Positions 1,620-63,231 of a stretch of DNA of 64,000 nt are shown one piece after another (within the stretch, counting starts at the first letter, position 1; the number at the start of each line of letters is the position of its first letter). The notes below the pieces were generated by a model that did no database searches, was not told where the DNA came from, and saw only the letters and a program-made list of their open reading frames with translations. The stretch lies in assembly GCA_965178125.1 (NCBI GenBank), contig OZ237738.1:1488001-1552000 (forward strand), written 5' to 3'. This DNA comes from Bilabrum cf. latius. Its lineage: Eukaryota. Position numbers and translations under genes: made by a program.

Positions 1620-3587
1620 ATGTCATCTTCCGAAGGCTTTGAGCTTACTTTGAGCGCGGGATCTTTGAGCGCTGCGCAGGCTCGCAAGTATGAACGATCC
1701 GCGCTCGATGGGACCACTCTACCAAAAGGGGTTCCTCTCCCTGCATCCGATCCTAGAGTGGATCCTCTGTCCAGGCTATTTGTTAAGAATGACAAATCTC
1801 CCTTGGAATTGTTTTAGAAGAGGCTGGTGCGTTTGCTGGTGCCAAGCGCGAGGATCCAGCGCCACCTGCTGAACTTGAAGGAGGCTGTTCCTATGCCAGA
1901 GGACGGTACCGATGAGCAGGATGACGCGAAGGGCTTGGTCAGTAGGATGCAAGGGTCAGCTCTGCGCCAGCCCCCCGGGCAACCCGTGGTGATTATTATG
2001 CTTGAGACTCTACTCTCCCGTGGACCAGACGGGCCTCTGCTTCCATTCGATAGGCTGCCAGATGTCGTGTCAGCGGTAGACCGGACGGTATCGCAAGTAT
2101 GTCCACCTCCGAAGGGCGGTAATAGCCATGAACAGCCAGGCAATCCAGTGCATGCCCTGACGGGCGCGGCAGCCTCCGTCGCCAACTTGTAGCCAGCCCT
2201 CATGCCGCTGTGGTCACCCATGCCGGCGCGCGAGATGCCCGTCGACCCGACCGGCTGGGTCACCACCCAAAGCGGCATGATGCGGTGCCACGGCTCCTGC
2301 GCCTCCATACTGGACCACTTCGGGCGGCACACGCACTGCACGCTGCAGGGCCACGGCGCCGGGAGGGTGGTCATGAACGTTCCTCCGGGGTGGGACCCCC
2401 GCGCGCAGACTCCACACCAGGCCATCCTGCTGCCCTCGGATAAGCCGCAGTCCGACGTCCAGGTCGTGGTCGAGCTGCTCCAGCGCCTGCCCCCGGGCGA
2501 GAACTCCCCAGTCCCGGGCGCGCCCCCCGGGCACCACATCCTGTACCAGGGAATTGGCACGGTTCGGAGCCGACGCACGGGCCCGCAGGCACCCAGGGAC
2601 GGCGCCCCGCCCCTTCGCATCCGCCTTCACAAGCAGTCGTTTGCAGGAGGGGCCGCGGCTCCGTCCTCCTCGTCCTCGTCCCGCCCCGAGAGCGTTGACC
2701 TGGTGGTGCTGCACCTTGGGCAGCCCAGGCCAGGGGGGCTGCCGCGGGGAGCGCCGGCATCGCAGGCCATAAACCCGCATGCTCAGTGGTCGCTGGGCGC
2801 GTGGGGCTTCCGCACCACCGTGCTGCGGGCAGCCCCCTCAAACGCTGCAGAGGCCGCCCGCGCAGCCGCCGCCTCCGGAGCCACGGGTGGCGTGCTGGGG
2901 GCCGTGGCAGGGCTCGGGTGGAAACCTGCGCCCGTGCGGAGGGCGGTGGGACACGTCTGTGAGTGGCTGTGGGCCGCGGCGGAGGCGTGTGCGGCGGCGG
3001 GGCAGGCCAGGCGGGCGCAGTCGGCTGTTGCCGCGGCAGGCCGGCTGGTCCTGGTGGTGGGGTCCGGCGCGCTGGTGCTGGGCCAGGCAAGGGCGCTGCG
3101 ACTGGTGGCCGAGGCACTGGGCCCGGCGGCGAGCGCGAGCGCTGACGTGGTCCCGGGTCACGAGGTGCGCGGCATCTGCCACGCGCTGCTGGAGTCCTCC
3201 GGGCTGCGGGCCGGGGGCGCGTGCCCCGCCGCCGACGTGAGCACGCTGGCGCGGGCGGCTGACTCCATCGTGGCCACAGCTGCCGCCGCTGCCAGCGCCG
3301 TCACGCAACCGGGCGGCGGCGCGGGGCTCCGGCCGGGTCAGACCGAGGTGGCATTCGCCCTGGAGGTGGGGCAGCCCACTGCGGTGGAGGTGTGCGACCT
3401 CCTGCAGAGGGCGGGGCGCGCCGGAGACACGGGGGCCGTGGATCGGGCGCTGCAGCTGGTGGGGGCACTCGCGGCGGGTTTGCGGGCCAGCGGTGTGGAC
3501 CCCGAGGTGCTCTTCGACTCGCAGGGGGGGCAGGGTGTGGGGGCTGCGGGCGCGCGGGGGGCGGCAGCCGCAGCTGGGGACGACTCT

Positions 3588-3618
<31 letters not shown>

Positions 3619-6600
3619 CGGGTAGTGCGGAGGTGGGGGGGCTCCAGGACACGGGCCCCCTGCAGCAGATCGCCAAGTTCCTGGTCAGGTGCGCCGCCCG
3701 CTCCACGGGGCTGGCCTCTGTGGACATGGCAAGGGCGGCAGTGGCGGCCTCATCCGCGGGTGCTTCGGGCAGTGGTAACCCCACCGCCAGTCCCACAGCA
3801 GCCCTGCAGCCGCCCGCGGACGATGACCCGGTGGACGTGCCAGTACCCCCGTCCCTGTCCATTGACAGCCTACGGGCAGCCACAGAGGTGCTGCTCCGAG
3901 GGGCGGATGTCTGGAGCAGGGCAGACCCGGCCGGTTTGGCCACTCTGGGGTTCAGCGCCCTTGGCTCGTGCGGCGGGTCATCCGCTGGTCCGTCCTCCAC
4001 CCCCTCTCCCGGTGGGCCGGTCGATCTCCCCCGCGTGGCGCTCGTGCTGCGGGACGTGCTACTGCCCTTGGTGCGTGGAGGGGCCCAGAGGCGCATCGGC
4101 GGCTTCCTGCCCCTGCCCCTGCCCACCAGCACCGCCGCCGAGTACGCCGCCACCGGCGAGGTGCAGCGTCAGCGGGAGCAGGTGCGGCTCTTGCTGACGG
4201 CGGTGGAGGCCCTGTTCGAGGACAAGACGGGGCTGGGGCCCGCGCGAGACGAAGGGGAGAGCGCGGCTGTCCATGGCTTCCAGCAAGAGGACGGAGAGGA
4301 CGGGACGCACGGTGTGGACCTGCACCCGGACCCTGCCTCCGTGGACACCCTCGCGATCCAAGGGGGAGGAGAGGCAAACCAGGCCCCGGTCGAGGCCGTG
4401 CGACTGCTGCAGACGTACGCCAGGAGGCTGGCAGCAGAGGCGGTCCGGCGTGGTAGAGAGGCCGGCACGATGCTGGGCGCAGATCCAGGGCAGAGCCACG
4501 CGTCGGTGGTCGCACTGGTGGAGCTGCTGCGAGCGGCGGTGCCCCGGCTGGAGCGGTCGGCCCATCGCACGGGGGCGGGGAGCAGCACCTGCGCGGTGCT
4601 GGGGCCCTGCGTGGCCGATGCCCTAGGCGCTGCGTGTTCCCTGTTCAGGTCTCCCCTGCTGGCGGAGGGCGCGCTGCCCGCGGCCCTCGCTGCACTCAGG
4701 GTGTCCAGAGACGCGATGGCGGGGCTAGCGGCTGCCGGGCCGGCGGGGGCGGGGCACACGTTGGGGGCCGTGTGGCGGGCGGTGCGCCGTGCGGCTGCCT
4801 GGCTGGTCCCCCGTCTGGCCATGACCCTTATCAGCGGCCCGCTGGTGGGGTCGCAGGAGCTCAGGGCGGCGCTGTGGCTGCGGGCCCCCGTGCTGGCGAA
4901 GGGTCGGCGGGAGGCGCAGTCGGGCAGTGCCGCGGCCCTCGGCTCGGTGGGGCTAGAGGAGGACGAGGAGGAGAAGGAGGCAGCGAGGGCGAAGAGGCTG
5001 GCCAAAGAGTCCTTCGTTGCGGGGGGCGTGCTGGGCGTGGGGGCGGCGGGCGCCTGGGCGCAGGACTGGGCGGCCACTGGGCTGCTGCCAACGGCGGCGG
5101 GTGGCAAGGGTGCGGGGGTCGGTGGGGGTGCATCGAGCGCCTCTGGGTCGAGTTCAGCGGGTGGGGGGGTTGCACCCTCCCGGGAGGATGGAGAAGGGGA
5201 GGGCAAGCGACTGCTGTCCCGCGCCGAGATCAAACAGGCGGTGGCCGATAGCGTGGACTACCTGCGGCAGGTCAAGGTGCTGACGAGGATCGAGAAGAGG
5301 TCCAGGTACACCAAGAAGGGCACCGACAGGGCGATCCTGGCCGCACTCGTCACACACGCGGGGCCCTGGGTGCACCAGGAGGTCGCGGCCGCTGCCAAGC
5401 ACCTGACCACGGGAGGGAACAAGTCGAGCCTGACTCCGAGTCCCTCGCTGCAGCAGGTGGCCGAGGTGCTGGATATCGTGCGGGCCCGCATTGGCACCAA
5501 GTCGGACGAGGAGCAGAAGGCCGCCGCCGCCGCTGTGCGGAAGCAGTGCTCCTTCATCGCTCAGATGCACCCCGCGCTTGACAGCTCAGGGGTGGACGGG
5601 CTGCGGGGAGACGTGGGCCGTCAGATCCAGCAGCTGAGCGTGTCGGCCACCGCCCAGGTGCATGTGCGCGAGACCGGGCTGGGGCTGCTGCCCAGTCGAA
5701 TGGAGACCAGTGACGAGGACGACGACGAGGACGAGGGTGGGGACGAGGCCGGGGAACAGGGCGCGGGGCTGGTGGACTGGGAGGCCATGGTGGACCGGGC
5801 GATGCGGGCCCAGCGGGACCCCTGGTCCCAGTTTCTTCAGGGAACAACGAGGGCCCCCGAGGGGGGTGAGAGCCCGGGTCCTGTCGTAGAGGATCTCAAG
5901 AGCAGGGTGACTGGGATGGTACTCAAATCGCTGCGGTACTACCTGGAGGCGGACTCCAAGCCCGGCCCTGCTGCCCTGCGCGCCCTCATGCGCCTCCGAG
6001 GAGTGCGAGCCTCCCAGCGGGCCAGCGGCCTGCGGGCCATGGCTGCATTCTTGCGGGAGGCATTCAGGGAGCCACAAGACACGAGGGCAGGCGGCGAGTC
6101 GGGCAGCGACGGGGGCTCCTCCCCTGACGCGCTGCATCGGGCGCAGAGCCACGCGAGGAGGTCCCTGTCCCGCCTGTCTCACACAGGGGGCCGCAGGTGG
6201 GCGGATGCGCGGCAGATGCTCCGGGGGGGCCTGGGGCCGTTCGTGGCCGGGGCCTTCCGTTTGCTGGTGCCTGCCATGCGGGGCCAGTTTGCCTACCGGT
6301 GGATCCCAGAGGACGTGCGGGAGGCGGTGGATGAGGCAGGGGGAGGCGGTGGTGGTGTGCAGGAGGATGGATCGGGCGGGCTTATGGATGGTGGTGGAAT
6401 CGAGGGAGACGGCGGGCAGTTCGACGTGCAGGACGCTCTTCTCGCAGGAGGCGGCGTGGCGGACACGAGCGCGGCGGGTGCTCTCCAGGCCGATGGCGGC
6501 GCCTTCGGGGCTGCCTCGGGGGCCGGGTCCGATGCGATGCCCATGGCAGCCGGGGTTGGATCTGGGCGAGCCTCCTCCAGTCTGCGGGACAGGAGCCCGT

Positions 6601-9600
6601 CCATGATGGTGCTGCAGGCCGCCTCGGCTGCGGCCAATGGCGCGACTGGGGCATTAGGCATGATGCGCGCGACCATGGCCGCCCGAGGGGCCTCTGCTGG
6701 AGTGCTGGTGGGCCCTCAGCGGCCTGGGTCTGCCGCAGCCGCCGCGGCATTGCCTGCGTCCCTCGCTGCCGCGGGCTACGACACCGCCTCTGTGGACGCC
6801 CTGGAACCGGCCGCCACACTCCAGGACGCAACTGCCACTGCCCTGCAGCCCACTTGGAGCCCGGCGCACCCCTCGGCGCTGCTTGAGGGATGCGCCTCGG
6901 ACCTGAGGGAGGCAGTGCAGGCGGCCTTCGAGGCGCTCTACTGGGACGCCTCCACGGTCCTGCGGCAGTGCGCCGCTGCGCTAGAGGAGGCCGCCAGCTC
7001 GGCCGTCTCTGTGCCTGTCTCGCGGCCGGGCGTGTCTTCCATCGCGGGGGGCGGCCGCGGGGGAGCCGGCGGTTCGCTGTCCCTGACTGTGTCGGACGTG
7101 GCGGTGCTGCGGCCCGTGTGCTCGAGCGTGATGCGTGCGTGGAGCATCGACCTCAGGCCCACGGACGGGCAGTTGGTGGTGCGGTCTGGCCTTCTCCCTG
7201 CCCTCAGGCGGCTGGCCTCCCTGGAGGGGGCCGCGCTGCGGGCCGCGGGCACCTCTTCCCAATGGGACAGCCTGCAGGAATCTATCAAGGAGGGAGGACC
7301 CTCTGGAGATGCCAGCCTGCTGTCACCCGCGGACCGCCTCGTGTGGGCGAGCGCCGCTCTGCTGCAAGGGGGGCTGCCCAAGAGGAGGGCACTGGGGCTC
7401 GTGCTCAGGAGCATTTCCCGCGTGATGCCCGGTCCTCAGGCGGCGGCCTTTCTGGAGCAGCAGGGGCTGCGGGGGAGCCTCCGCGAGGTGCAGCGCACGG
7501 TCACCACGAGCCACTTGCTGCAGATCATGGAGGGGCTGTGCACCGCCCGCGCCCCGCCTCCGTCCCTGGAGGGGCTCTTCGACGAGCGCACGCCGCTCAT
7601 CGGGGTCAAGGCTCCCTTGCGCAGCGTGCCGGCGGGGCCCTCCAGCGGGGCAGGCGCGGGCAGCGGAAGCGGGCCTTCCATGTAGCCCGCGCCCCCCATC
7701 CGGCGCGCGGCCTCCTTTGACCCCCTAGAGGCAGACGATGGAGGGCTCCCCGATGGCCCGCTCCTGTCGCGGTCCATGCAGGGCCTGCTGCGTGGCCCTG
7801 AGGAGCTTCCCGTGCTGCAGAGCCTAGAGGACAGCGTCTGCATGCGGGGCAGGTACAGGGCCGTGGGCGCTGATGACGAGGCAGCCGCGGACAAGTCGCT
7901 CTCCGATAGAGCCGACCATCTCCTGCGGTACCTGGTGCTGTGCGCGCTCGCACGGGACACGAATGAGGAGAAGGTGGCCAGCGTGACGGAGTTCAGGGAG
8001 TCCGTGGGGCGCAGCGCGGGCGCCAGCGGGCAGGAGGTGATGACGGTGGGGTCCTTCGAGGGTCTCCAGTCTCTCCTGCAGCTGCGGGCGGCGGCGGTGG
8101 AAATAGTGGTGGCGGAGCTCTCGCAACTGGTGGCGCTGCTCATGCAGCCGGCCGAGGAGGGCATCCGCGGGGCGGGGATGGTGTCACGGTCACTGGCGAG
8201 GGGGCGCAGCGGGCGGGTGTCCTCCTCGGGCCGCACCCCTAACCCCGGGCGAAGCGCCAGCAGCGACAGCCACGGTGCCTCAGGGATGCGGAGCCCGTCC
8301 TCGGCCTCGGTCTCTGCCCCCGGGACGGGCGTACCCGAAGAAGGGTGGTCTCTGCTGGAGCCCCTGGAGCTGGAGGCGAGGTGCGACGGGCTGCTCAAGA
8401 CGATCGTGGTCTGCGGCCGCACGCAGTCCGGTGCGCAGCTGCTGGCGGTGCCCCGTATGGTACGCTGCCTCGTGCGACTGCTGCTGCCCCCCGGCCGTGG
8501 GTCCCTGTGGCAGACGGACCAAGGGGTTAAGGACTTCTCCACGAGATGCAAGCGTCTGGCACTCCAGGCGCTCTCCGCCATCGGAGGGCAGCTGTCGCCC
8601 GCAGATACCTCCCGTGCCATCCACCAGGCCATGCGGTCTGCCGGTGGCGGGTTGGAGGATCTCCTGGGCGGGGAATCGAAGGAGGCAAGCGGTGACGAGG
8701 AGAAGGATGATGAGGATGGGGACGGGGCGGAGGGCGAGGGCGCGAGGAAGCGCGATGAGGGGGCGGGGGCGGGGGCTGGTGCAGGGGGCACGGATCGGTG
8801 GGTACCGCTGCCTGGGACGCACCCCTTCGTGCACTTCCTGCTGCAGTCAGCGGGCGAGACAATCTGCGGGCGCGTCGTAGAGGGTTAGGCCGAGGGAGAG
8901 GGCATGGATGCTGCTGATAGCACCATGCCGGATGGGCTGCCTGCCCTGGCCCTGTTCGGGCCGGGCAAGGCCAGGCAGGCCCTCGCCTCCGAGGCGCTGA
9001 CGTGCCTGTGCGAGCTGTCGGCCGCTTCCACCGCCTGGCGATCGGAGGTGTGGAAGGCAATCGGGGCAGTGATCCGGAGGGTGCTGCCGGCCTTGCAGCG
9101 GCTGGTGCCCCTGACAGAGGCCTCCAGTGGGTCTGGCGAGAGCAAGGCGTCGGAGGGCGGGGAGGAGCGAGGGGCGGAACTGACGTACGCTGACGTGGTG
9201 GATGCGCTGGAGGAGGCGGAGGTGTCCCCTGCCGAGGTGCATCGTGCCGTGGCGGCCATCAGCCTGGTGGGCGGACCGTCCGAGTGCATCCGAGTGGGAG
9301 GCCGCGTGCGGGTGCTGCCTGCGCCCCGGCAGGCCACGGGGCACAATGACGAGGACGATTCGAGTCAGGGGGGCTGGGGCGTGGTGCTGTCGCTGGGCCG
9401 ATCACTCTTCGGGGAGCTGCTGGCATCGAGGAATGCTGAGCTCATGCAGAGCAACTTCGCGGGGAGGCAGCTGCCGCCCGTGGGTGGGGTGCTGCGGTCC
9501 TGGCGCAACCAGCAGCTGCACAAGGCAGACCCCGCGCTGCTTGGTCCCGGTGTGGGGCAGGCCATGGTGGTGCTGACCTCGGAGTCGGGCGAGGACGTGG

Positions 9601-12600
9601 ATGCCGCTGCAGCCACTGGGGGACGAGAGCGAGCCGGACACGCGGGTGCTGGCTTGCTGGACCACCTGAGCATCGGGTATCCGCAGCCGAGCCAGCTGCC
9701 AGTGGTGGTAGTGGGCGTGCAGCGGCTGGTACCTGTCGCGGCCGCCACCCGCCCGGGCAGCATGCCTGTCCCAGCGGCCGGAGACGAGTCCGGGGGCGAG
9801 TCTGGCGCCTTGGGTCGACCCCCATCCCTGGCCCGCATGTCCTCCGTGCCCACGGATGGAAGCACGGCAGGGCCTGCAGGGCTTGCGACGCTGCCCCGAG
9901 ACCTGCTTCAGTTCTTCCTGTCCGCGGTGCAGCTGCCTCCGGCCAACTACATCGACGGGGCGGACGGGTTCGGGGCGCAGTGTGCCGTGGAGCACGTGTC
10001 TTGGATGACTTTGCTGCGGCTGCACGCGGCCCGCTCCTTCCCCGCTCTCTCGCAGTACGGCCTGGTGCGCCCTGCCATCAGGGAGCTGCTGGCAGAGGGC
10101 ACGCGGGGGGCGGCGGCCGCGGGAGGTGGGGTCGGCTTTCAGGCCGTTCGTGCCCTGGTCAAAGCGGCGCTGCGGCCCCTGCACAACTCGACTCTGATCA
10201 CCCGCGCGAGCCTCTCCGAGAGGAGGAGAACCCTGCACCGGTGGCTGCTGGAGGCGAGGCAGACCAAGGGGGCCGCCTTCCTCTCTCCGCACACAGACAC
10301 GGCAGAGGCCGAGGACGTGCCCCGCGGAGACGGAGACGCGACCGTGACTCCGGCTCGAGCTAGCGTGCTGGCGGCAGTCGAGTCGCTGACCGGGCAGAAG
10401 CTGACCGGGGCGGCGGCGGCCGGCTCTGGCGGTGCAGGGGCCGCCGGCGGCGCGCTGACGGTGGCGGCACGTGTGGCCGGTTCCACCACCGGGACGGATC
10501 TGATGGCAAGCGGGCTGGTGACCACGCTCACGGAGATGACGGCAATGAACTCTACCATCTGCCGGGCGGCTCTGGAGATGTTCCAGGGTGACTCGAACCA
10601 GGCGGCGCAGTGGCTCCTTGACCCAGACAACAGCCGCTGGACGGGCCAAGGTGCCGCACACTCCCAGCTGGATGACCCCATGGTGGGGTCGTGGCGACAG
10701 GGCCAGGCCGCCATATCGGGAGGCAGCGCCAGGTCCAACAAGGCAGGGGCCGTCCACGACAGCGTGTCTGTTACGGACGAGAACGTCGCCGCCCTTGTGG
10801 CAGAGCTTCTTGCGGACCCATCGGCCGCCATGGGCCCAGCCGATACCAAGGCACTGACGCCGGCCGTCACGAGCGGCGGCAGTACGCGAAAATCGGTGGC
10901 TGGAGCGGCCGAGAGTGGCGCGGCGCTGGCGTCAGCCGCAGCCTCCGCTGGGTCGGGCACCTCTCACCGTCGCGGGGCGGGCCGGCAGCAGAGCGTGATG
11001 GCTCTCAGGATGCAGGAGGCCAGGACAGGAGGAGCCGGAGAAGCCGAAGGCGGTGCGTAGGGCGGCAACAGCAGCGGGGACGATGACTCAGATGCCTCAG
11101 CGGCTCTCAGCGGGGCGTACGCTCAGCTGCTGTCCGCTGCTGGCGTCCGCTTCACCTTTACGGGAGTGCTGCCGCCCAGGATGCTTGCGAGCGCGGCGGC
11201 AGCAGCGGCGGCCATGGGCGAGGCAGCAGTGCAGCAGCGCGCGTTTGTGCCCAACTTTTAGCAGGACAAGGGAGGCGTGCTTCCCGAGGGCATCTGGAGG
11301 GGCGCCGCCGTCAGCGTGAACGGGGGACTGAACGACGTCTCGATGGACGCGGCCTCCATGGGTACTGTGAGCTACGTGGACTAGGAGTACAGGTCCGGGC
11401 TGCTCGAGTCGCTGCGGTGCCGCGTGTCGTTCTGGAGCGAAGGCAGCGGCGCAGAACTGACCATCCCTATCCACCTGCCGGTGAGCGAAGACAAGGCATC
11501 CCCTGAGATCGGGCTCAACGTGACTCTGGGGAGGGCGCCTCTCTTCGGCAGCAAGGGCGCCTAGGAGGCACAGCAGCAGCAGCAGCAGCGAGGCGGCAAG
11601 AAGAACGCGGGGCCCAGCAAGCTGGTGGCGCTCCCGCTCAACCGACCCACGCTGGTGGGAAGCTCGGAGGTGACCGGACTCGCGGGGCTGGCCGCTTCGC
11701 TTGCCGTCACAGATGACGCGCTGGCCACGATGTACAGCCGCGAGGCCGTGCTGGTGCTGCTGCAGACCGCGCAGGCCAACGCCGAGCAGGCGCAGGCACT
11801 GGCCCCTCGGGGCGCGAGCCCGCAGTCGCTGCCTATCGACGTGCAGGACCTCTTGAGGCTCTTCCGCCTAGTCTCTGCCTCGGAGGTGGACTTCAAGGGG
11901 GCGGGCGGGACGCTCAGCAGGAAGGACGCAGCTGCTGCCGAGGCGCAGAAGCTGGCGGGATACCTAGCGCAGCTGGAGTCGCACGGACATGCGGGCGGGG
12001 CACACGCCGGCCTCTAGCAGCAGTCCACGGCCAACGTGCTGGGTGCTATCATGCGGAGAGCTCTGCTGTCAGAGAGCGAGGCGGTGGAGCGGGCAGCCGC
12101 GACCGGTGATGCAGCCGCCGTGCGCTCCATGAGCCAGCTGGGAACCCTGGCCGGCTCCGGGTCAGTGGCTGCGGCGGGGAGCGGCGCGGCGGGGGATACC
12201 ACGGCTCGGTATCCCATGGCGGCTGGGTTCATCAGCGAGGTGGTCCGGAACATCACGGGCGTGCAGACAGGAGCGGGTGGGTCCAAGGCAGTGGAGAGCG
12301 AGGCGCTGGTCCTGCACTCGATGCATCCACTGCCGCCCGGAGTGCCGTACTGGGTGGAGGCCCGGTTTCCCGGCGCCTCGCAGCTGCAGCTGGAATTTGA
12401 CTCGAGGACCAAGACTCCCGCAGTGACCATGCAGCAGGGGGGGGTCGTCACTGTGGCCAAGAAGGCCGGAGCTTCCGATTACACGGTGCGGGTGCTCCGT
12501 GGCCGCAGCCGACACGCTGAAACCATGCCTGCCCTCATTGACGGAGACAGCGTGCGCGTGACGCAGGGCATCTACTTTGGGGAGGTCAAGCCAGACCTGT

Positions 12601-20293: not shown

Positions 20294-20333
<40 letters not shown>

Positions 20334-22202: not shown

Positions 22203-22288
22203 GGGTTTACGCTCCTGAAATTTTGCCCAATGGACGTTTCGCATGTTGCATGTATTATCTTCTGATATACCTGGTCGTAGTTTAGCTG

Positions 22289-54600: not shown

Positions 54601-57600
54601 CTCCAGCAGATCCCGAGGCCTCGCCGCTTTCGGTTCCTGCAGCCTGTCCGTCTTCATCTCCAGTCAGCCGTTGCACCATGGCGGCCTCTGGGGCCAGTCG
54701 CAGGTGCACCCTGTACCGGAGCTGCCGGCGGGCGGCGATGCCGTTTCCGTCCACAGCGCGCCTCTCGTCTGCCTGGGCGAGGACCATCCTGCGCTGAGCC
54801 TCCTCCTCAATGGCCTCTCGCAGCGAGGGTGCCTGTCGCGAGGGGGATCCCCGTCCCAAGGGCGCGGCAGACACGGCGAGTGATGCCGCTTCCAGTGCCA
54901 CGCCCACTCCAGTGGCGTAGGCACGTTCGGTGGCAGCGGCAAAACGAGCCACCACAGCGGCGGAGGGCAAGTGGTGCTCCACCAGCGCGCCATTCCCGCC
55001 TGGTAGCACCCCGCGCATCCGCTGCAGCAGTCTCGTGTGCCCGCCCTCCTCGGCATCAGCGGCAGCGGCAGTGATGCTGGCAGGGAGTCGGGGCACCAGC
55101 GCGAGGGCGTCGGCACCACCCGCTTCGGCATGCTCGGCTTCAGCCTCGTTCTATGCCGGGACATCCGTGGCGCCCTCGCCTTCGGGCTGCTCCTGGCTTG
55201 TGCCCTGCGGCTCATCTCGGGCAGCAGTCTGGTAGGGACGGACGGCTAGAGGCGGGGCAGGCTGCAGTGTGGCCCACAATGAGGAGGAAGAGAAAGAGGA
55301 AGAGGGGTGCTCTGGGCCGATGCCCCCACCCACTGCCAGGGCCAACGACCATGCATCAGCGCGCCTGGCCGCCTCAAGGGCCCGCTCGATCGTGTCTTCG
55401 TCGTCTTCCTCCTCGCCCTCATCTTCCTCTTCTGCACTTCCGTCCGTCTCTGCCCAACCCGAGGGAACAAGACCTTCGCCCCCCTTCTTGTCCTTCTTGC
55501 CCTTGTCCTTCTTCTTGTCTTTTCCCTTCTTGTCCTTGCCCTTACCCTTGCCAGCATCGCCCTCGTGCTACCCTTTCTCCCCCTCGGCTGGAAGCGGGGC
55601 AAGCACCTCTGCTGCCTCCAGCCACTCGGGCAGCTCTGGGGCGGCCTCCTCGCCCTCTTCGTCCTGCGGGCTTGCATCTGATATGTCTGCGTCACTTTTA
55701 TCTCCCTCTCCCTTCTTATCCTCTCCGTCTGCATCGATCTGCTTGCCGTCGGCCTTGACTGCCAGAGCCACCAAATCTCTCCTGAGTCCAGCAGCGATCG
55801 ACCGCTCCTGCTCCACCGACTCGGCCACAAGCTGCTTTGCCCGCGCCAGCTTGTCAGCTGCCGTCTCGGGAGCAGCATCAGAGGCAGCAGCAGCAGACTC
55901 GCCGTCAGCAAGCGCCTCCTTGCCGTCCACTTCCGCCGCTCCGCCAGCCGCAGCCCCAGCCTCCTCACCTTCGCCCGCCTCCTCGAGGCCCAGCAGCTCC
56001 CGCAGCTAGCGAAGCAGAGCCGCCGATCGCTCCCTGCGCGCCCTCACCGCGCCGGCGAGGAGGACAGCCGCCTCGTGTCTGGCAGCAGCCTGGGCTGCCT
56101 GCAATCTCGTGGCCTCGGTGCGGGGCCGGAGGTCGACTTGGCCTATTGAGAGCCCACGGATGCCTCCGCTAGACAGTGCCCCGCCCGTTCCTTCCCCGCT
56201 GGCAGGGTCATCCTCCTAGTGACCACCACTCTCCGCCCCACGGGACCCGAGCAGCGCGCCGTGCCCCTCCAGACATCGCATCAGCGCCTCGGCATTTGCG
56301 GCCTACCGCTGAGAAGCCGCCCGGTCCCTCCTCTCCGCATCTCCGGCAGCCCACGAGGCTAGCCGGGCCGCCTTCAGGGCCGATTCCTGAGCCACCTGCA
56401 GGGCACGAGTGACCATATCGGCGGCTGCATCGGAAGAGGGGAGGGCCTGCGCCAGGCTGCGGCTTCCTTGAGGGCACCAGGGCACGAGCTCAAGGCCAGC
56501 TGCCTGCTCCTGCCCGTCGCCCCCCTCCATTCCACCGCTCGACAGGCCCCCTTGGAAGGAGCGCCACTCCGCCAGCCTGGAGCCGAGCGTGGATCGAAGC
56601 AGCAGGTGGGCAGCTGCGTAGGCACCGTGGGGGTCGTACGGCGGGCCCCTGTCCCGCCTGGGGGCAAGGTAGGCCCCCGAGGGCGGGGCAAGACTGGCGT
56701 GCAGCGTGGCGGGCCCTGCCTCCACCCTGGCGTCCAGCTGCCACGCCGCTGCGTCGGGCAGCTCGGCCTCGCTCAGACCCCCGAACAGGTCGGCCACCGA
56801 GGGATCACTTTCCGCACCAGCACCGGGGCCATCGTTGTTCCCTGACCCTCCAGAGCCATCTTCTCCCGCGGCCTTCTTGCCGCCCAGCTGCTCCCATACC
56901 TCGAGCACCAGGGGAGAGGAGGCCGCGGGCTCCGCCCCTCCCTCGATTGCACCCCGCTGACCAACGCGCGGGAGCTGTGCGCCCTCCTTGCCAGCAGCGA
57001 AGCTGTCCCTGCAAGCGGCAGGCGCGTCCAGGGCGAGGAGCTCCCTCCTCCTCGCTGCTGTGGAGGTCGCCTCAAGCCCGGGAGTGTCTGTCCGCGGCAG
57101 CCACTCCCCCCCATCGATCCAGCCCAGGGCTGCATGGGCTGCCAGGTCCTCAGGCATGGTCAGACACACCGTGGCGGCTGGGGCGGGCAGCTGCCTGGAC
57201 GGGTGCCCGTCGCTGATCGCCCCGGTGCTGCCTCCTGCTGGGGGTGCAAGGGCCAGCCGCACCGCCCGCCCCGCTGCTCCCCGCGTCTCCACCGCCCCCT
57301 CCACCAGCTCAGCGAGCAGGGCAGACGAGAGCGCTCTCCTGACCGAGTCGGCTGGGCTCTCCAGCTCGCCCCAATGCGTCCCTGTCTTGTCCTCTCCGTC
57401 TTGTTCCCCGTCTGCCTCGTCGAGCAGCAGGCCCCCGCCGGCGAGCCTGTCTGCAAGCAGTCCCACCGCCGGGTCCGACACTCGCCGGGCAGCCCCATCC
57501 TCGCCCGCGCCGCCCAGCAGCGCCGTCCTCGCCCAATCTGGATACCCCCTGGACCGGGCCTCCTCCCGCGCCTCCTCGTCCACGGCCTATAGGGCCCGCC

Positions 57601-60600
57601 GGCCGAGTCCAGCGGCGAGGGCGAGGGCGCCAGCTGCCTCGGGGGAGCGCCAGGCGTCGTGGTCCGCGGCGTGCGGCCACAGGGCAGCCTGAAGCGCTGC
57701 GGCGTGTTCCCTGGACTGTGGGTACCCCAGCAGAAGCCAGCCGCAGCTGCCCGATACCTCCTTGCCATCCTCCTCCTTGGACTCTCCCCTGTCTTCTCCT
57801 TCTTTCAGGTGCTCCCCTGCATCGGACACTGAAGGCATAGAGCCGCCGCCACCCCTGCCCGATTGTTCCTCATCGGTGGGCTCCGGCCCCTCCCCGGGCA
57901 CGGGGCCTGGGACCCACCCGTCAGCCCTTCCCCACGCCCTCACGGCCAGCGACACGGCCAGCGCCATCAGCGCGGCGGGGGGACGAGCCGCTCCCACGGC
58001 CCACGGCGCGACGAGCAGAGCAGCTGGCGACAGGCGCGCGGGCCGAGTCCTGCTCCGGGCCCACGCGGCCAGCTGCAGGCCGAGCTGTCTGCATGCCTCG
58101 GCGGCTCCTGCGTCTCCCGCTGGCAGGCAGGACGCGGGCGGGTCTGGCGCCCTGAGCCCCGCCGATGGGGGCACCACGGGGAGCTGCGCGGCGCCGCTGC
58201 GGAGCCACTCCGCAGCCTCCTCCTGCATGTCTGCATCAGCGGGAGCACCCTCACCCCCGGCAACTGGGTAGCCCTCCTCCTGGCCATCACCACCCTTGCT
58301 CTCTTGTTCCTCCTCTTTGCTTTCTCCTGCACCCGCTGCACTGGCCCCTTCGAACACGGCCGCGTAAGCGGGTTGCCACCACGCCAGTCGACCGCCGCGG
58401 GTCGCGTCCGTCCCGCTCGTCACACCACCTTGCACCCAGACCCCCGCGGCCCTGCGCAGACCCTCCCATAGCAGACGGGAGGGGTCCACGACAACGAGCG
58501 GCAGGCCCCCGTCCTCTCCTCCGCCGCCGCCTCTGCCACGGGCGGCTGCCTCGCTCACCCGCCGAGCCACGGGCCACAGCAGCCTCTCGCAGCCCGGCGG
58601 CGCGCACAGCGCCATGGCAGCCGGCGGCAGCGCGGGCACGTCCACCTCCCCATCCAGTGCCCCGCCCGCCGCCCGGCCCAGAGGCACGGCCGCCAGGCCG
58701 AGGAGGCGCTTGGCGGTGGGGAGGTAGGCTGCGCTGGCAGCTCGGCCGGAGGGCGTCGCCGCCGTCCCGTCTGCACTTGCCGCCTGCTGCAGGGGGGGCA
58801 GCGGCAGATCCGCGCCGCCCGCCCGCACCCAGCCCCTGTCCAGCTGCTCGATGGCCCGCGCCCAGCGGTGCAGGCGCGCGAAGAACGCCGCCCGCCATGC
58901 GTCTTTGGCCTCCCGTGAGGCGACTGCACCGTCGTGCGGTGCACCTCCCCCCCTCGCCAGCCGCAGCACGGCACCGCATGACTCGGAGGCCCACGAGTGA
59001 GTGTCCTTGGCCAGGGCCAGGCCACTCCCGGCCTACCCCTCCGAGTCATCACTCGAGGCACAGAGCTCGGCGAGAACCTGCGACCAGGGAGCGTCGCTAT
59101 CTCCCTCGAAGGCGGAGGACGGGTCGCTCGCCAGCAACGCGGCACGGAAGGCAGAGGCACCGGAGCGCGCCGCCCCTGCCTCGGCCTCTGCCGCGCCCCA
59201 GCCCGCCCGCACTCGGCCGCTCGCTCCCTGCACCGCGTGGCCGCCGGCAGCCCCGTCCCCGCCCCGCTCCAGGGCCAGCACCCTGGCGGCGAGTGCGGCC
59301 CCGAGGCCCGTGCCGCCGCCGTCCCGAGTAGCACCCGGAGAGGCAGCTCCATCCGGCGCCGCCGCTGCAGCTTGTTGCCAGCAAGGGTCGGCTGCTCGCC
59401 GCAGCCCCTCGGAGGCCTCCTGCAGCCAAGAGGCAGGGCCCGGGGCAGGGACACCACTCCCATCCCCCTACTGTTCTTGGTCTTTGCTTTCGTCATCCCC
59501 CGAGTACGATACGCGCCCCACACCACCAGCATCCCCCGCCGCCTCGAGAGCGGTCTCCAGGGCGGCCGCAAGCTGTCCCAGGCCCGTGGGCTTGGGTTTG
59601 GCAGCGGGGCCACCGGCTGGGCTCCCCTGCCCCGCATCAACACCGCCGCCGCCGCCGCCGTCGCTCTTGCTCTCGCTCTCACTGGCACCGGCACCGGCAC
59701 CGCTCACGTCGGTTCCGTCGGCGCGGCGCCGCGAAGCCACGGCCAGGCCCGCGGCCACGGCCCTGTCCACGGCGGCCTGCGCGTGCCCCATCGCGGCCTC
59801 CACCTCGTCTGCGTGTTCCCTGGCCTGCACCTCGTCGGCCCCGCGCATCGAGTCCTCCACGCTGCGCCTGAGCTCAGCCAGCTCCTGGTCCCGCCACGCC
59901 TGCGCCGCCGTCCGCGCCGCAAGCTCGGCACCCATGGCCGCTTCCTTGGACTCCTCCGCGTCCCGGTCCAGCCTCGACTTGCGCATGCCCTTGGCGGCCT
60001 CATCTGCGCTGCGGCGGGCCGCGGCCACTGCCTCGGCGGCGGCAGCGGGCTGCCTCGCCAGTGCCGTCGCCAGCGCCACCACCCTGCCGGCGGTGGTGCG
60101 GCCCCCGCGCAGGGCCACGGCCTGTGCAACCGCTGCCACGCGCCTCCTCGACCTCTTCATCAGGCTGCGCTCCTGCTCGGCCCGCCTGCGCCTCAGCCGA
60201 GCTGCTCCAGGGTCATCCAGCAGCCCGCCGGGCCTCTCCTTGCCCGCACCATCAGGCGCACCACCACCACCACCACCCTTGCCAGCGGCAGCAGCAGCAT
60301 TTGAACTCGCCGGCCCCTGCTGCCTGGGCAGCGTCAGCCCCGCCGCCAGCACCTTCCTCGCCACCGCCCTCCTCCTCTCCTCCCGGGGCAGCGCGGCCTC
60401 GGCGTAGTCAGCCTCCGTGGGCTGCCTGCTGCCAGAGGGCCCCGCCCCCAGCTCTGCCTCGGCCTCCAGCACGACCCCCTCATCCTCCTCCTCCGCCTGC
60501 AGTTCATCGTGGTTCCCGTTCCGCCCCCGGGACACTCCACCCCTGCCGCCGCCTGCACCCCCCACCAGCAGGCCCGACTCAGCCAGGGCGTGCTCATCCT

Positions 60601-61729
60601 CCTCCTGCCAGCCCACCCCCACCACGCCCAAGCGACCGGCCGTGGCCTCAAAGGCCGCGATCGACTCGGCCGCCTAATTTGACGTCACGGCGCGCACGGC
60701 CGCTCGCTTGGCGGCCCGCTTGCGAGCTGCATCGGCCCGCTGCCTCGCGACCGTGGCCTCTCGCGCCAGCGCCACTTCTTGCGCCCGCTGCCACTCGCGG
60801 GCCCCGTGCGCCGCCCGGGCCGCCGCCGCCATCCTGTGTGCCCTGAGCGACTGCAGCCTGCCCAGCCTCTGCCGCTGCAGCCAGGCCTGGTGCGCGTCTC
60901 GCTTGCGCCTCTGGAGGGCGTCCCTCTCCTGCCTCAGCTCCTCGATCTCGGCCGCGTGCTTGCGGAAGGAGACGGCCTCCAGTCGGCGGCCCTCCGGCGG
61001 TGCCTTGATCTGCAGCGTCTGGGCCACGCCCTGATCCATGGCCTTGGCGAACTGCGCGGGGGCGGGGGGGGCCGCGCCGCTGAATGTGGCTGCGAGCAGC
61101 TTCCTGGGAGCCTGTTCCTCCTTGCCCTCTGGCTCCTTCGAAGAAGCAGAAGCGGCGGCGGAGCCTTGTCTCCGCTGGGGCAGGTGGGGGTGCTCGTCCC
61201 TATCCCCGGTCGCTGCGAGGTGTTGGGAGGGAGCGGGGGCCCGGCTCTCCCGGGGCTTGACCAGAGAGCCGCGGCCCACGGGCCTGCGAAGCAGCGGGGC
61301 GGCTACGCCCCGGAGCTGGTACACGATCCGAATGGCAATTTCCTGGGCGCCTTTCTCCTGCCGGGCCACTCGGCCGACGTCGTCTGCGGTGGCGCGGATG
61401 CCCAGGCGGCGCAGGGTGGCGCTCGCCCGAGACCAGTTCTCAGAGGCTACGGCCGCCCGCGGACCATCGCGCCACTTGGGCCAGTCCTGCTGCTATCCAA
61501 GCGCCCACAAGCAGCGACCCATCAGATTTCCCGATTGCAGCGACGCGGTCAGCGCCGTGTCGGACTTGAGAGCTTTGAGCACCCGTTCGGGCTTGCCGCC
61601 TCCCACGAGGGGGCGCAACTCCGAGCCGGGCGGTACATCCAGCAATGACACGCGGGTAGAATCGTCTGCACGCTTCGTCAGGGGGAATAACACAGTGTCC
61701 CGAAGCCAGGCACGAAGCTGCTTGCTCAT
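48644..61729 (-). CDS. Giant SPEF2/CPC1-like flagellar protein with N-terminal calponin-homology domain (~4361 aa)
   Basis: One frame from ATG 61729 to TAA 48644, with 11 TAGs (61493, 60674, 59468, 59033, 57587, 56303, 56216, 56006, 55568, 55151, 50246). N-terminus MSKQLRAWL...SGNLMGRCLWALG[TAG]QQDW...NWSRASATLRRLGI...RIVYQL matches the SPEF2 CH domain, followed by coiled coil. Confidence 0.75.
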
Positions 61730-62025
61730 GATACGATCGGCCGCAGCGCAACAGGCAAGGAAGAGCTAGAATTCTACTACAGATCGCTAGCGATCCTCTT
61801 GAGCAGTTTCCCAATCACAGTCGAATTAGCCTGATAATGCAAAGTCGCTTAATGTGCGCCTAGACGGCTCACAGCAGGTATTTTTGGCAACTCTAGCCGT
61901 TGTCGCTGGTACGGTAAAGTTTTAGCCAGCACAATTATATCAGATTCGAATTGGCCGCGCCGTCAATCACAAGGATAGCCGCTCACCCGCTTCTCCATAA
62001 TGAAATAAACTACAGGCTAATGTTG

Positions 62026-63231
62026 TCACGCAGTCTCGTTCCAAGCCCAGGGCCTCGTCGGGTCCGGCCTCCCCGCCGCGTGCTGCTGCAGCACTGCCAG
62101 TAGCTCCAGGGCCGCCTCCTTGGGCTGGTAGTCCACGTCAAAGGGGAGCGGGTACTGGTCCGTCCCCAGCCATGTGCGCCTGTCCGTGAATCCCCACGCG
62201 ATGAACGCGTTGCAGCCGGGCCCCTTGCCCGGCTCGCTGGCCTTGGCCGCCAGGCACGCCGTGAGCGCGTCCCCGTATACCTTGGCTTGCTTCTCCCTCT
62301 CTTTCTGGTTCTCGGCCCCGGGCCCGCACTTGGGGCAGCGCACGTCCATCTCTGTGATCTGCGAGGCCAGGCCCATGGCGGCGAGCTGCTTTAGGTTCGC
62401 GAGCACCTCCTGCGGGTTGCGCGGCTGGTCCACCGTGACGTGCATCTGCAGCCCCACGCCGTCGATGGGGATGCCCTTGGCCTGCATGTCCTTCACGTAC
62501 TCCACCTGCCGCTGGGACTTGTACGAGTCGGCCTGCTCCGCGCCGTAGTCGTTCACGAACAGAGCCAGGGCCGGCCAGCCGTCGGGGGTCTGCCGGCCCA
62601 GCCCCGCGGCATCGCGCGCGGCCCCCGCCGCCTGGAATGCCACGTGGACGTAATCGGGGAGCTTGGGGTACCAGGTGTTGTTCTTCAGGTCTGCGTGCGC
62701 CGGCCAGCACTGCTCGGTGCTCTGGCAGAACGGCTCGTTGACCACGTCCGTCACGAAGGGGATCTGGCCGACCGAATGGATCATCTCCGTCACGTGCTGT
62801 GTGAGGGCCTGCTTCAGCTCCGCGCCGTCGAGGTTCTTGAGCCAGTCAGGGTTGTAGCTACCCCAGCAGAGATTGTGCAATCGGACATTCCCTTGCATGA
62901 TGTCGTGCGACCACTTCTAGCTGTATGAACACTCAGTGGTGTTTAGGGCCGCCGGGGGCGGCAGCGGCTGCGTCTCTTGCCACTTGCAGCCGTTGCCCAG
63001 CACCGTCGTGTCGAACTACGTTTTCAATGTGTACTCATACATGGGATCGGACTAGTTCACCATGAACTTGTAGTTGTGCTCGGCGCCAATATAGATCCCA
63101 GCAGCGAGCGCCGCTTCGCGCAGCGTTTGGTTCATTTTCTGCAGACCGACATGCTTGTACAGCAGCTCTGCAGTACTGGTTCCAAGTGTGCTAAGAACGA
63201 ATGCCGCAGCAGCAGCTGTTGAGACCTTCAT
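62026..63231 (-). CDS. Secreted glycoside hydrolase family 10 (endo-1,4-beta-xylanase-like), 401 aa
   Basis: Signal peptide MKVSTAAAAAFVLS. KT[TAG]FDTTVLGNGCKW, HNLCW, DVVNEP (acid/base), LFVNDY, PIDGVGLQMH, ITEMDV (nucleophile), WGFTD. TAGs at 63052, 63016, 62917. Ends TGA. Confidence 0.93.

What the first reader, a model, noticed from the sequence alone, without database searches (positions are those of the whole stretch)
1620..63231. Non-canonical nuclear genetic code: UAG is a sense codon (Gln) while UGA and UAA terminate
Seen: about 60 in-frame TAGs in 13 genes on both strands. Each joins same-frame ORF pieces with no frameshift and no in-frame TAA/TGA in the modelled exons. The genes include conserved housekeeping or structural genes (DOLPP1, URB2, CFAP58, HECT E3). 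No gene model ends in TAG. Established: nuclear UAG and UAA are nearly always reassigned together. UAG-only reassignment is rare (UAG=Gln in the fornicate Iotanema spirale and some phyllopharyngean ciliates; equivalent to NCBI table 15). Inference: this GC-rich flagellate looks like neither group, so this may be an independent, possibly undescribed reassignment. It predicts a tRNA-Gln(CUA) and an eRF1 that no longer reads UAG. Neither is in this window.
Basis: partly seen in the sequence, partly recalled or inferred. Interest (0 to 1): 0.97.

Follow-up and report, generated by a model that had tools for sequence, protein, structure and literature searches.

The report
UAG read as glutamine, GC-rich protist
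This stretch of a GC-rich, flagellated eukaryote's nuclear DNA uses the usual stop codon TAG as an ordinary codon, most likely for glutamine, while TGA and TAA still end genes: a rare variant of the genetic code in an unexpected kind of genome.

Summary
In nine long reading frames (15,651 codons) there are 52 in-frame TAG, 0 TAA and 0 TGA. The two shifted frames hold 54-55 TAG, 12-25 TAA and about 205 TGA. Only reading TAG as sense joins the pieces into genes of 4514, 4393, 2051, 1620 and 955 codons carrying HECT, WD40, CFAP58 and GH10 domains. Spliced transcript contigs keep TAG unchanged, which rules out editing, splicing and assembly error at the sites covered.

Glutamine is the best reading. 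Proteins 78-97% identical to the window's have Q at 7 of 11 TAG sites (W, L, S and a gap at the others). Two paralogue pairs inside the window show TAG opposite CAG. One conserved GH10 column is Q in 31 of 45 homologues. Against this, three CFAP58 sites align with conserved Lys, and two or three sites with Leu/Ile.

The relatives' reading frames break at the same TAG positions, and a metagenome contig has an in-frame TAG in cathepsin X, so the code is shared by relatives.

The tRNA and the release factor could not be examined. One TAG just after the APC11 RING domain could still be a terminator. This is a new member of a known kind (table 15 type).

The parts
1620..15155 (+). HECT-type E3 ligase gene. 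It has 4511 codons and no intron seen. There are 11 in-frame TAG, with first bases at 1815, 2190, 7683, 8886, 11058, 11259, 11382, 11562, 12015, 14436 and 15060. It ends in TGA.
   Evidence: ORF under TAG=Q. Pfam HECT E 1.6e-40 at residues 4200-4512 of 4514. PDB HECT alignments run through the TAG at residue 4484. Relative P0123 (93% identical) has Q at three TAG sites and ends exactly before the TAG at 4484.
16440..21290 (-). WD40-repeat protein gene of 1616 codons. It has 9 in-frame TAG; the highest coordinates of those codons are 21092, 20930, 20825, 19790, 19757, 18947, 18878, 18794 and 17768. It ends in TGA.
   Evidence: Fragments of relatives (P0124, P0126, P0127, P0129) tile the gene and break at TAG 71 and TAG 505. 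P0126 ends at the same TGA.
21423..22202 (+). Small gene of unknown family with a 90-nt GT..AG intron (21667-21756). One TAG at 21462. It ends in TGA.
   Evidence: Spliced contig X5 record 19 covers 21418-21665 and 21756-22232 with 0 other letters. TAG and stop. No Pfam family.
23069..25924 (-). CFAP58 (flagellar coiled-coil protein) gene of 951 codons. It has 5 in-frame TAG (25780, 25771, 24841, 24355, 24256) and ends in TGA.
   Evidence: Pfam CFAP58_CC E 4.8e-44. PDB CFAP58 chains E 4.7e-88 to 1e-79, aligned over residues 12-838. Contig X5 record 20 (23403-25994) covers all five TAG with 0 other letters.
27159..28230 (+). APC11-like RING-H2 gene with two introns (27216-27306, 27427-27514). 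One TAG (27372) lies inside the RING domain. A second TAG (27640) lies 4 codons after it and is followed by 195 open codons up to a TGA.
   Evidence: Pfam zf-ANAPC11 on both exons. PDB APC11 alignment runs through the TAG. Spliced contig X5 record 21 covers both TAG with 0 other letters. The coding score of the tail is undecided.
28790..29509 (-). PAP2 / dolichyl-diphosphatase-like gene. One TAG (29170) lies upstream of the C-terminal phosphatase motif. It has a 93-nt intron (29421-29513) and ends in TGA.
   Evidence: Pfam PAP2 E 5.2e-17 over residues 48-196, spanning the TAG at residue 114. Spliced contig X7 record 28 covers 28732-29420 with 0 other letters.
29938..32196 (+). Gene of unknown family whose product has hydrophobic, Ala/Gly/Leu-rich stretches. 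It lies downstream of a 94-nt intron (29844-29937). It has 5 in-frame TAG (30103, 30553, 30913, 30955, 31585) and ends in TGA.
   Evidence: Contig X5 record 22 (29938-30760) covers two of the TAG with 0 other letters.
32372..34123 (-). CRAL_TRIO lipid-transfer protein gene. It has no TAG and ends in TGA.
   Evidence: Pfam CRAL_TRIO E 2.5e-23.
34352..40384 (-). It has 7 in-frame TAG after the first ATG (39217, 38470, 38155, 37534, 36811, 36121, 34465) and ends in TGA.
   Evidence: No Pfam family at E up to 1 for the C-terminal 482 residues, nor at 0.01 for the whole protein.
40774..48600 (.). Tandem duplication of about 3.9 kb (copy 1 about 40774-44700, copy 2 about 44706-48600). Each copy holds a plus-strand gene and a minus-strand ankyrin-like gene. 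Paralogous codons: TAG 47828 opposite CAG 43922; TAG 43970 opposite CAG 47876; TAG 48308 opposite TTG 44410; shared TAG at 41452/45376. Both plus-strand genes end at an aligned TGA.
   Evidence: the repeat finder. MAFFT alignment and codon walk. Stops.
48644..61729 (-). Gene of 4361 codons, low-complexity and Lys/Gly-rich, of unknown family. It has 11 in-frame TAG after the first ATG and ends in TAA. It is the only TAA-ended model.
   Evidence: Downstream of the TAA the frame reaches TGA after 24 codons.
62026..63231 (-). Secreted GH10 xylanase-like gene of 401 codons. It has 3 in-frame TAG (63054, 63018, 62919) and ends in TGA.
   Evidence: Pfam Glyco_hydro_10 E 2.7e-57. PDB alignments. Relative P0003 (297 of 316 identical) has Q at all three TAG. 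The column at the second TAG is Q 31, E 11, H 2, N 1 among the 45 of 50 aligned homologues with a residue there.

Best explanation
The organism uses a nuclear genetic code in which UAG is an ordinary sense codon for glutamine. UGA is the usual terminator and UAA a rarer one (the NCBI table 15 pattern).

Shown here:
- UAG stands in frame in expressed, conserved genes.
- It is kept in mRNA.
- Selection does not avoid it in frame.
- It alternates with CAG between close relatives and between paralogues.

Inferred, not shown:
- Decoding is by a tRNA-Gln with anticodon CUA, derived from tRNA-Gln(CUG) by one anticodon change. Such a tRNA reads UAG but not UAA.
- The release factor eRF1 has lost efficient recognition of UAG.
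- My own suggestion is that GC pressure, which makes UGA the dominant stop, lowered the cost of freeing UAG.

The code is shared by at least one close relative and probably by more distant environmental relatives.
For: 1. Frame statistics. There are 52 in-frame TAG against 0 TAA and 0 TGA in 15,651 codons. TAG is as frequent in frame as off frame (55 and 54), whereas TGA is 0 against about 205 (P 1.6e-37).

2. Only TAG suppression builds the genes. Essential parts lie downstream of TAG:
- the HECT C-lobe
- the GH10 domain, Pfam match at residues 90-427 of the ORF, i.e. downstream of and across its TAGs
- the C-terminal part of the PAP2 domain, residues 48-196 spanning the TAG at 114
- the second half of the APC11 RING.

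3. mRNA. Contigs of runs X5 and X7 lack seven GT..AG introns that the DNA-like runs X1 and X2 keep. They cover 13 TAG sites with 0 other letters. Six of these sites lie in contigs that are themselves spliced.

4. Residue, from close relatives (78-97% identical). Q at GH10 113, 125 and 158; at HECT 3258, 3469 and 4276; and at WD40 1179. That is 7 of 11 sites; the others are W, L, S and one gap.

5. Residue, from paralogues inside the window. Two reciprocal TAG/CAG pairs.

6. Relatives' reading frames end opposite window CAG at three places (residues 1093, 1122, 171), and opposite window TAG at three (71, 505, 4484).

7. The conserved GH10 column is Q 31, E 11, H 2, N 1 among the 45 of 50 homologues with a residue there.

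8. Summed BLOSUM62 over the 13 close-relative and paralogue partners: Q 39, E 9, K 2.

9. UAA. There are 0 in-frame TAA where 5.9 are expected from the CAA:CAG ratio (P 0.003), and one gene ends in TAA.

10. UGA ends 16 of 17 models. Homology confirms this for HECT, WD40 (P0126 ends at the same TGA), GH10 and the paralogue pair.

11. The mechanism is taken from passages of PMC5304391 and PMC11687900: a CUA anticodon reads UAG but not UAA, and lineages with reassigned stops show changes in the eRF1 N-domain.
Against: - CFAP58: the TAG sites at residues 56, 528 and 561 align with Lys in 3 PDB CFAP58 chains and, for 56 and 528, also in P0001. Residue 53 aligns with Glu/Asp.
- Over deep homologues alone the BLOSUM sums do not separate the candidates: K 18, Q 15, E 14.
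- WD40 site 809 is Leu in the close relative and Ile in a metagenomic one, inside a conserved stretch. One paralogue pair is TAG/TTG. Sites 786 and 837 are Trp and Ser in the relative.
- One relative's frame ends opposite a window AAG.
- I could not see the relatives' DNA. That their Q are CAG or CAA, and that their frame ends are TAG, is inferred from the way the predicted proteins start and stop.
- No tRNA gene is present in the window or in L001. No eRF1 and no proteome data were available, so the decoding machinery is untested.
- The TAG at 27640 sits 4 codons after the APC11 RING domain, about where human APC11 (84 residues) ends. The coding score of the 195-codon tail (0.149 bits per codon) is reached by 25 of 616 non-coding windows and lies in the lowest 2% of coding windows. 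UAG may therefore still terminate there.
Confidence: 0.8

Rival explanations
1. UAG has two meanings: glutamine inside genes, and still a terminator in some contexts. On this view the reassignment is incomplete or context-dependent.
For: The APC11-like gene has a TAG 4 codons after the RING domain, about where the 84-residue human protein ends. The 195 codons behind it score low for coding (0.149, against a coding mean of 0.456).
Against: - The same gene has a TAG inside its RING domain that must be read through.
- No non-coding window reached the tail's score in the first control (0 of 290), and only 4% did in the second.
- The tail has no TGA or TAA in frame, against 1 and 7 TGA in its other two frames.
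- Yeast APC11 is 165 residues long, so a tail after the RING is not unheard of.
- Where homology reaches the C-terminus (five genes), the end is TGA.
- The 3' UTR would be at least 258 nt (contig to 27898). From recall, known ambiguous codes mark true stops by closeness to the poly(A) tail.
Confidence: 0.1
2. UAG is a sense codon but not, or not only, for glutamine. It might stand for Lys, Leu or Glu, or for a mixture inserted by near-cognate tRNAs when eRF1 reads UAG poorly.
For: Conserved Lys at three CFAP58 sites. Leu/Ile at WD40 809 and TTG in a paralogue. Glu in human cathepsin X opposite the TAG of L001. Every non-Q partner seen (W, L, S, K) has a codon one base away from TAG.
Against: - At 93-94% identity, Q stands at 6 of the 6 alignable sites in GH10 and HECT. 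Under Lys or Leu these would be six non-conservative replacements in proteins that differ at 6-7% of sites.
- The paralogue pairs are TAG/CAG.
- The GH10 column has no K or L among 45 residues.
- Genes with 11-13 TAG need near-complete decoding at each site, which argues for a dedicated tRNA.
- The non-Q partners are what one expects if new TAG codons also arise from TGG, TTG, TCG and AAG at weakly constrained sites.
Confidence: 0.07
3. The TAGs are not translated: pseudogenes, assembly or sequencing errors, unrecognised introns, or RNA editing of UAG to CAG.
For: None found. Only one feature looks damaged, an 11-nt insertion that shifts the frame of duplicated gene copy 1.
Against: - 0 TGA and 0 TAA in 15,651 codons.
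- Identical sequence in contigs of four runs.
- TAG is kept in spliced mRNA contigs.
- The seven introns seen are about 88-233 nt with GTRAG...CGCAG ends, and none of them removes a TAG counted here. The one TAG that lies in an intron (22624) was not counted.
- The relatives keep the same frames.
Confidence: 0.01

Closest known systems
Iotanema spirale (Fornicata): UAG = Gln, UAA and UGA stop (Panek et al. 2017, PMC5304391; abstract and passages seen)
   Same: UAG alone is reassigned, to glutamine, in a non-ciliate flagellate. UAG was never seen as a terminator. A tRNA-Gln(CUA) and an altered eRF1 are predicted.
   Different: In I. spirale UAA is the main stop (104 UAA against 15 UGA among 119 gene ends). 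Here it is TGA (16 of 17). The window is 56-73% GC.
Ciliates with UAG = Gln only: Protocruzia tuzeti, Hartmannula sinica, Trochilia petrani (McGowan et al. 2024, PMC11687900; abstract and passages seen)
   Same: The same code table. [quoted passage not shown]
   Different: In those genomes UAA is the commonest and UGA the rarest stop, and GC is 27-54%. There UAG makes up 18-32% of Gln codons, here 7% (52 of 723). The window has ordinary GT..AG introns of about 90 nt and very GC-rich genes.
UAR = Gln codes (NCBI table 6 pattern): many ciliates, hexamitin diplomonads, ulvophycean green algae, Streblomastix, Amoeboaphelidium (listed in PMC11687900)
   Same: A stop becomes glutamine, and a suppressor tRNA-Gln is expected.
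   Different: There UAA is also glutamine. Here there are 0 in-frame TAA in 15,651 codons, and one gene ends in TAA.
UAG = Leu (uncultured rhizarian exLh; three TARA phyllopharyngean genomes) and UAG = Ser (Scotinosphaera) (PMC5304391, PMC11687900; passages seen)
   Same: UAG is uncoupled from UAA.
   Different: The residue differs. Here Leu/Ile partners stand at 2-3 sites and Ser at 2, against Q or CAG in 13 comparisons.

Membership tests
Nuclear code with UAG = Gln, UAA and UGA = stop (NCBI table 15 pattern) | UAG occurs in frame inside conserved, expressed protein-coding genes | tested here: met
   52 in-frame TAG in nine genes. They lie within or upstream of HECT, GH10, PAP2, APC11 and CFAP58 domains, and they are kept in spliced mRNA contigs.
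Nuclear code with UAG = Gln, UAA and UGA = stop (NCBI table 15 pattern) | UAG is decoded as glutamine | tested here: met
   By comparison only. Q at 7 of 11 sites in close relatives. 2 TAG/CAG paralogue pairs. 3 relatives' frame ends opposite a window CAG. GH10 column Q in 31 of 45. The Lys columns of CFAP58 speak against it. There is no proteomic proof.
Nuclear code with UAG = Gln, UAA and UGA = stop (NCBI table 15 pattern) | UGA remains a terminator | tested here: met
   0 in-frame TGA against about 205 in each shifted frame. 16 of 17 models end in TGA. Homology confirms this end for HECT, WD40, GH10 and the paralogue pair.
Nuclear code with UAG = Gln, UAA and UGA = stop (NCBI table 15 pattern) | UAA remains a terminator | tested here: met
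   0 in-frame TAA where 5.9 are expected if it were a Gln codon used like CAA (P 0.003). One gene ends in TAA, but a TGA follows 24 codons later, so that single end is weak evidence.
Nuclear code with UAG = Gln, UAA and UGA = stop (NCBI table 15 pattern) | UAG is not used as a terminator | tested here: inconclusive
   No model needs a TAG end. The TAG at 27640, just after the APC11 RING domain, could be one.
Nuclear code with UAG = Gln, UAA and UGA = stop (NCBI table 15 pattern) | A tRNA with anticodon CUA and glutamine identity | not testable with these tools
   No tRNA gene in the window or in L001. No genome is held for the window.
Nuclear code with UAG = Gln, UAA and UGA = stop (NCBI table 15 pattern) | eRF1 N-domain altered so that UAG is poorly recognised | not testable with these tools
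   eRF1 is not in the window.
UAR = Gln code (NCBI table 6 pattern) | UAA also in frame as a sense codon | tested here: not met
   0 of 15,651 in-frame codons are TAA. TAA=Q joins no gene frame.
Ambiguous codes without dedicated stops (Condylostoma / karyorelict type) | All three stop codons also occur as sense codons | tested here: not met
   No in-frame TGA or TAA.
UAG = Leu code (rhizarian exLh type) | UAG stands at conserved leucine positions | tested here: not met
   Leu/Ile partners at WD40 809 and at one paralogue site only. Q or CAG in 13 comparisons.

The most novel reading that the evidence does not exclude
An independent and so far undescribed UAG-to-glutamine reassignment that marks a whole clade of very GC-rich (65-72%) flagellated protists known mostly from environmental sequence.

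It would be the first such case in which UGA, not UAA, is the dominant terminator, which suggests codon capture under GC pressure rather than AT pressure.

Former UAG stops, such as the one just behind the APC11 RING domain, would be frozen in place. They are now read through into new C-terminal tails, or still terminate in part.
Probability: 0.4. Interest if true: 0.85.

Novelty: new member of a known kind. Interest (0 to 1): 0.74.

Why it matters
Nuclear codes in which UAG and UAA have different meanings are rare. The passages I read name about half a dozen lineages. All the UAG=Gln cases named there stop mainly at UAA: the ciliates have 27-54% GC, and no GC value for Iotanema was in the text I searched.

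A case in a 65-70% GC genome that stops almost only at UGA widens the conditions under which the code can change. It also gives a test bed for how eRF1 can drop UAG while keeping UAA and UGA.

There is a practical consequence too. Standard gene callers cut this organism's proteins at every TAG. The public protein collections hold its relatives' genes only as fragments that break at TAG. Annotation of this genome and of related metagenome contigs needs table 15.

Tried and rejected
No whole genome is held for the window, so no genome-wide codon inference, tRNA or eRF1 search was possible.
- No tRNA gene and no Rfam family at gathering score in the window.
- The homologue search with CFAP58 gave only 2 hits, because the word filter was saturated by coiled coil.
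- The first metagenome scan, with the HECT C-terminus, found no relative. The second gave 47 loci, of which only L001 looked like a relative. I did not examine L002-L047, which are 27-43% identical to the query apart from one 55% match over 41 residues.
- L001's record could not be searched further.
- The protein atlas search with the CRAL_TRIO protein gave only family-level look-alikes from animals and plants and no clue to lineage.
- Pfam found nothing for six ORFs of the duplicated region, for the 4393-codon gene, for the 2051-codon gene, or for the two small genes at 21.4-22.9 kb. I had guessed SRP14 for the gene at 22289-22867 from its sequence; Pfam did not support that.
- RNA: no listed holder is on record as RNA. 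I treated X5 and X7 as RNA-derived only because their contigs lack introns. The X5 contig over APC11 stops at 27898 and depth is low beyond it. A part without cover is not evidence, so I did not use this for or against termination at TAG 27640.
- The coding-potential score could not settle the APC11 tail.
- Six literature searches found no paper describing UAG=Gln in a GC-rich non-ciliate, non-fornicate eukaryote. The library lacks most subscription journals, and supplements were closed.
- The organism's lineage was not determined, and I did not try to trace the coded runs.


Full report
What the window is. The 64 kb are 56-73% GC. They carry closely packed eukaryotic genes on both strands. 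Pfam finds HECT (E 1.6e-40), WD40, CFAP58_CC (4.8e-44), CRAL_TRIO, Glyco_hydro_10 (2.7e-57), PAP2 (5.2e-17) and zf-ANAPC11. Contigs of two runs (X5, X7) skip seven short stretches with GT..AG ends that contigs of two other runs (X1, X2) keep. The window therefore has spliceosomal introns of 88-233 nt with GTRAG donors and CGCAG acceptors, and X5 and X7 hold spliced transcripts.

The observation. Under the standard code the longest frames are 1830 and 1634 codons. Reading TAG as sense joins same-frame pieces into frames of 4514, 4393, 2051, 1620 and 955 codons. Reading TAA as sense joins none of them. Reading TGA as sense opens only spurious frames in this GC-rich DNA and does not lengthen the gene frames. 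In nine frames read from their first ATG (15,651 codons) there are 52 TAG, 0 TAA and 0 TGA before the terminal stop. The two shifted frames hold 55 and 54 TAG, 12 and 25 TAA, and 206 and 204 TGA. So TAG is as common in frame as out of frame, while the other two stops are absent. If in-frame stop-like codons were drawn from the off-frame mixture, this outcome has P about 1.6e-37. Small genes and a duplicated pair add about ten more TAG.

Not an artefact, not edited, not spliced out. DNA-like contigs of X1 and X2 match the window with 0 other letters across 16400-20286, 20341-26125 and 27121-31639. Transcript contigs cover 13 TAG sites with 0 other letters:
- all five in CFAP58 (X5 record 20)
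- two in the WD40 gene (record 18)
- six in contigs that are themselves spliced: 21462; 27372 and 27640 in APC11; 29170 in the PAP2 gene; 30103 and 30553.
The one TAG that does lie in an intron (22624) was not counted. Essential parts of several proteins lie downstream of a TAG in the same frame: the HECT C-lobe, the GH10 domain (Pfam match at ORF residues 90-427), the C-terminal part of the PAP2 domain (residues 48-196, spanning the TAG at 114) and the second half of the APC11 RING.

Which residue: evidence for glutamine. The strongest evidence comes from close relatives found in the public protein collections. These proteins were called with a standard-type code, so they exist only as fragments.
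- P0003 (297 of 316 residues identical to the GH10 protein) has Q at all three TAG sites.
- P0123 (1168 of 1261 aligned positions identical to the HECT C-terminus, 5 of them gaps) has Q at three TAG sites and a gap at a fourth. It ends exactly before the fifth, in the middle of the HECT domain.
- For the faster-evolving WD40 protein, P0126 has Q at residue 1179. P0124 (86% identical) has W, L and S at 786, 809 and 837. P0127 and P0129 end exactly before the TAG at 505 and 71.
- The fragments also end opposite window CAG codons at residues 1093, 1122 and 171, and once opposite AAG.
- Inside the window, a 3.9-kb tandem duplication gives direct DNA evidence: TAG 47828 opposite CAG 43922; TAG 43970 opposite CAG 47876; TAG 48308 opposite TTG 44410; and one shared TAG. 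Two further sites lie in poorly aligned stretches (opposite CGT next to a 6-nt gap, and CAC at 46% identity), and two fall outside the conserved frame or the coding part. I did not count those four.
- In an alignment of the GH10 protein with 50 of the 120 listed homologues (taken from the top 67 of the list), the column at the second TAG is Q 31, E 11, H 2, N 1 and 5 gaps. The other two columns are variable.
- Summed BLOSUM62 scores over the 13 close-relative and paralogue partners give Q 39, E 9 and K 2.

Which residue: evidence against glutamine.
- In CFAP58, TAG sites 56, 528 and 561 align with Lys in three solved CFAP58 chains and, for two of them, also in P0001. Site 53 aligns with Glu/Asp, and site 366 with K, S, S and E.
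- WD40 site 809 is Leu in the close relative and Ile in a metagenomic one.
- Over deep homologues alone the sums are K 18, Q 15 and E 14, which decides nothing.
My reading is as follows. CAG-to-TAG is a synonymous transition and dominates in constrained proteins. TGG, TTG, TCG and AAG, each one base from TAG, supply new TAG codons where Gln is tolerated. Every non-Q partner seen has such a codon. A mixed or different decoding cannot be excluded without peptides. That their Q are CAG or CAA rests on the fact that the same proteins stop at positions where the window has TAG.

The other two stop codons. All 17 gene models end in TGA (16) or TAA (1). This follows in part from how the frames are defined. 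Homology confirms the end for HECT (the domain reaches the last residues), for the WD40 gene (P0126 ends at the same TGA), for GH10 (L001's orthologue ends within four codons, after the same unusual tail) and for the paralogue pair (aligned TGA). TAA never occurs in frame. If it were a Gln codon used in the CAA:CAG proportion, 5.9 would be expected (P 0.003). Behind the single TAA end, a TGA follows after 24 codons, so that end is weak on its own.

An open point. The APC11-like gene has one TAG inside the RING domain and a second one 4 codons after it, about where the 84-residue human protein ends. Yeast APC11 is 165 residues long. Behind the second TAG, 195 codons stay open up to a TGA. Their coding score (0.149 bits per codon) exceeds all 290 non-coding windows of a first control, but 25 of 616 in a fuller control reach it. 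It also lies in the lowest 2% of coding windows. Either a former stop is now read through into a new tail, or UAG still terminates here. I could not decide between these.

Relatives. The same frame breaks in P0123, P0127 and P0129 show that the close relative shares TAG positions. P0125/P0278 and P0183/P0279, which come from metagenomes and are 35-62% identical, are again fragments of the WD40 orthologue that end opposite window CAG. A metagenome contig, L001, is 68-74% GC. It encodes squalene epoxidase, an ABC transporter and a GH10 enzyme 42% identical to the window's with the same C-terminal tail. It also has a cathepsin X gene with one in-frame TAG upstream of the conserved His-containing segment, aligned with Glu in human cathepsin X. 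The code therefore seems to belong to a lineage, not to one strain. How these organisms are related was not tested.

Mechanism. Nothing in the window bears on it directly: there is no tRNA gene and no eRF1. From passages of Panek et al. 2017 (PMC5304391) and McGowan et al. 2024 (PMC11687900):
- a tRNA with anticodon CUA reads UAG but not UAA, which allows UAG alone to change
- such a tRNA can arise from tRNA-Gln(CUG) by one base change
- eRF1 of lineages with reassigned stops often carries N-domain changes.
I infer the same here. That GC pressure made UGA the near-universal stop and so lowered the cost of freeing UAG is my own suggestion and is untested.

Comparison with known cases and novelty. 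The code table is the known UAG=Gln pattern. In I. spirale, UAA ends 104 and UGA 15 of 119 genes. In the phyllopharyngean ciliates, UAA is the commonest and UGA the rarest stop, and GC is 27-54%. Here TGA ends 16 of 17 models, and TAG makes up 7% of Gln codons (52 of 723). Six literature searches found no description of such a code in a GC-rich non-ciliate. The library is incomplete, supplements were closed, and the runs that hold the window date from 2025, so a description may exist or be on its way. I file this as a new member of a known kind, of high interest to specialists.

Noticed in passing
window 40774-48600: A tandem duplication of about 3.9 kb holds two gene pairs (46-98% nucleotide identity along its length). 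Copy 1 of the plus-strand gene has an 11-nt insertion after the codons for ..PLAM (about 44362). This shifts it out of the C-terminal frame that copy 2 conserves, so copy 1 may be decaying or may have a new C-terminus.
   Followed up: partly
window about 26000-27150: A high-copy repeat lies between CFAP58 and the APC11-like gene. Contig depth there is 1000-7000, against about 45 in the flanks, in the DNA-like runs, with many variant copies. No Rfam family matched. It is also present in the RNA-like runs.
   Followed up: no
window 16927-17453 and 20287-20340: Short high-copy or low-complexity stretches lie inside the WD40 gene (summed contig depth 2686 in that bin against about 46 in the flanks). 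By position they match the Asp-Thr repeat and the poly-Ser run in the protein. The read tool skipped repeats at 20287-20340 and 31640-31687.
   Followed up: no
L001 3512-4558: A metagenome contig (68-74% GC) has a cathepsin X gene with one in-frame TAG upstream of the conserved His-containing segment. The squalene epoxidase and ABC transporter genes (about 1950 codons together) have none, so TAG is much rarer there than in the window.
   Followed up: partly
window 48644-61729 (minus strand): The 4361-codon protein carries several near-identical Lys/Gly/Asp-rich motifs (KGKGKDKKGKDKKKDKGKKDKKG and variants) spread along its length. It has no Pfam family.
   Followed up: no
window 27640: A TAG stands 4 codons after the end of the APC11 RING domain, about where the 84-residue human protein ends. 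It may be a former stop codon left in place after the code change.
   Followed up: partly
proteins P0003, P0123-P0129, P0125, P0183: Public protein collections hold the relatives' genes only as fragments that start or end at the TAG positions, some with a GTG-type start read as Met. This is a sign that standard gene calling mis-annotates this lineage.
   Followed up: yes
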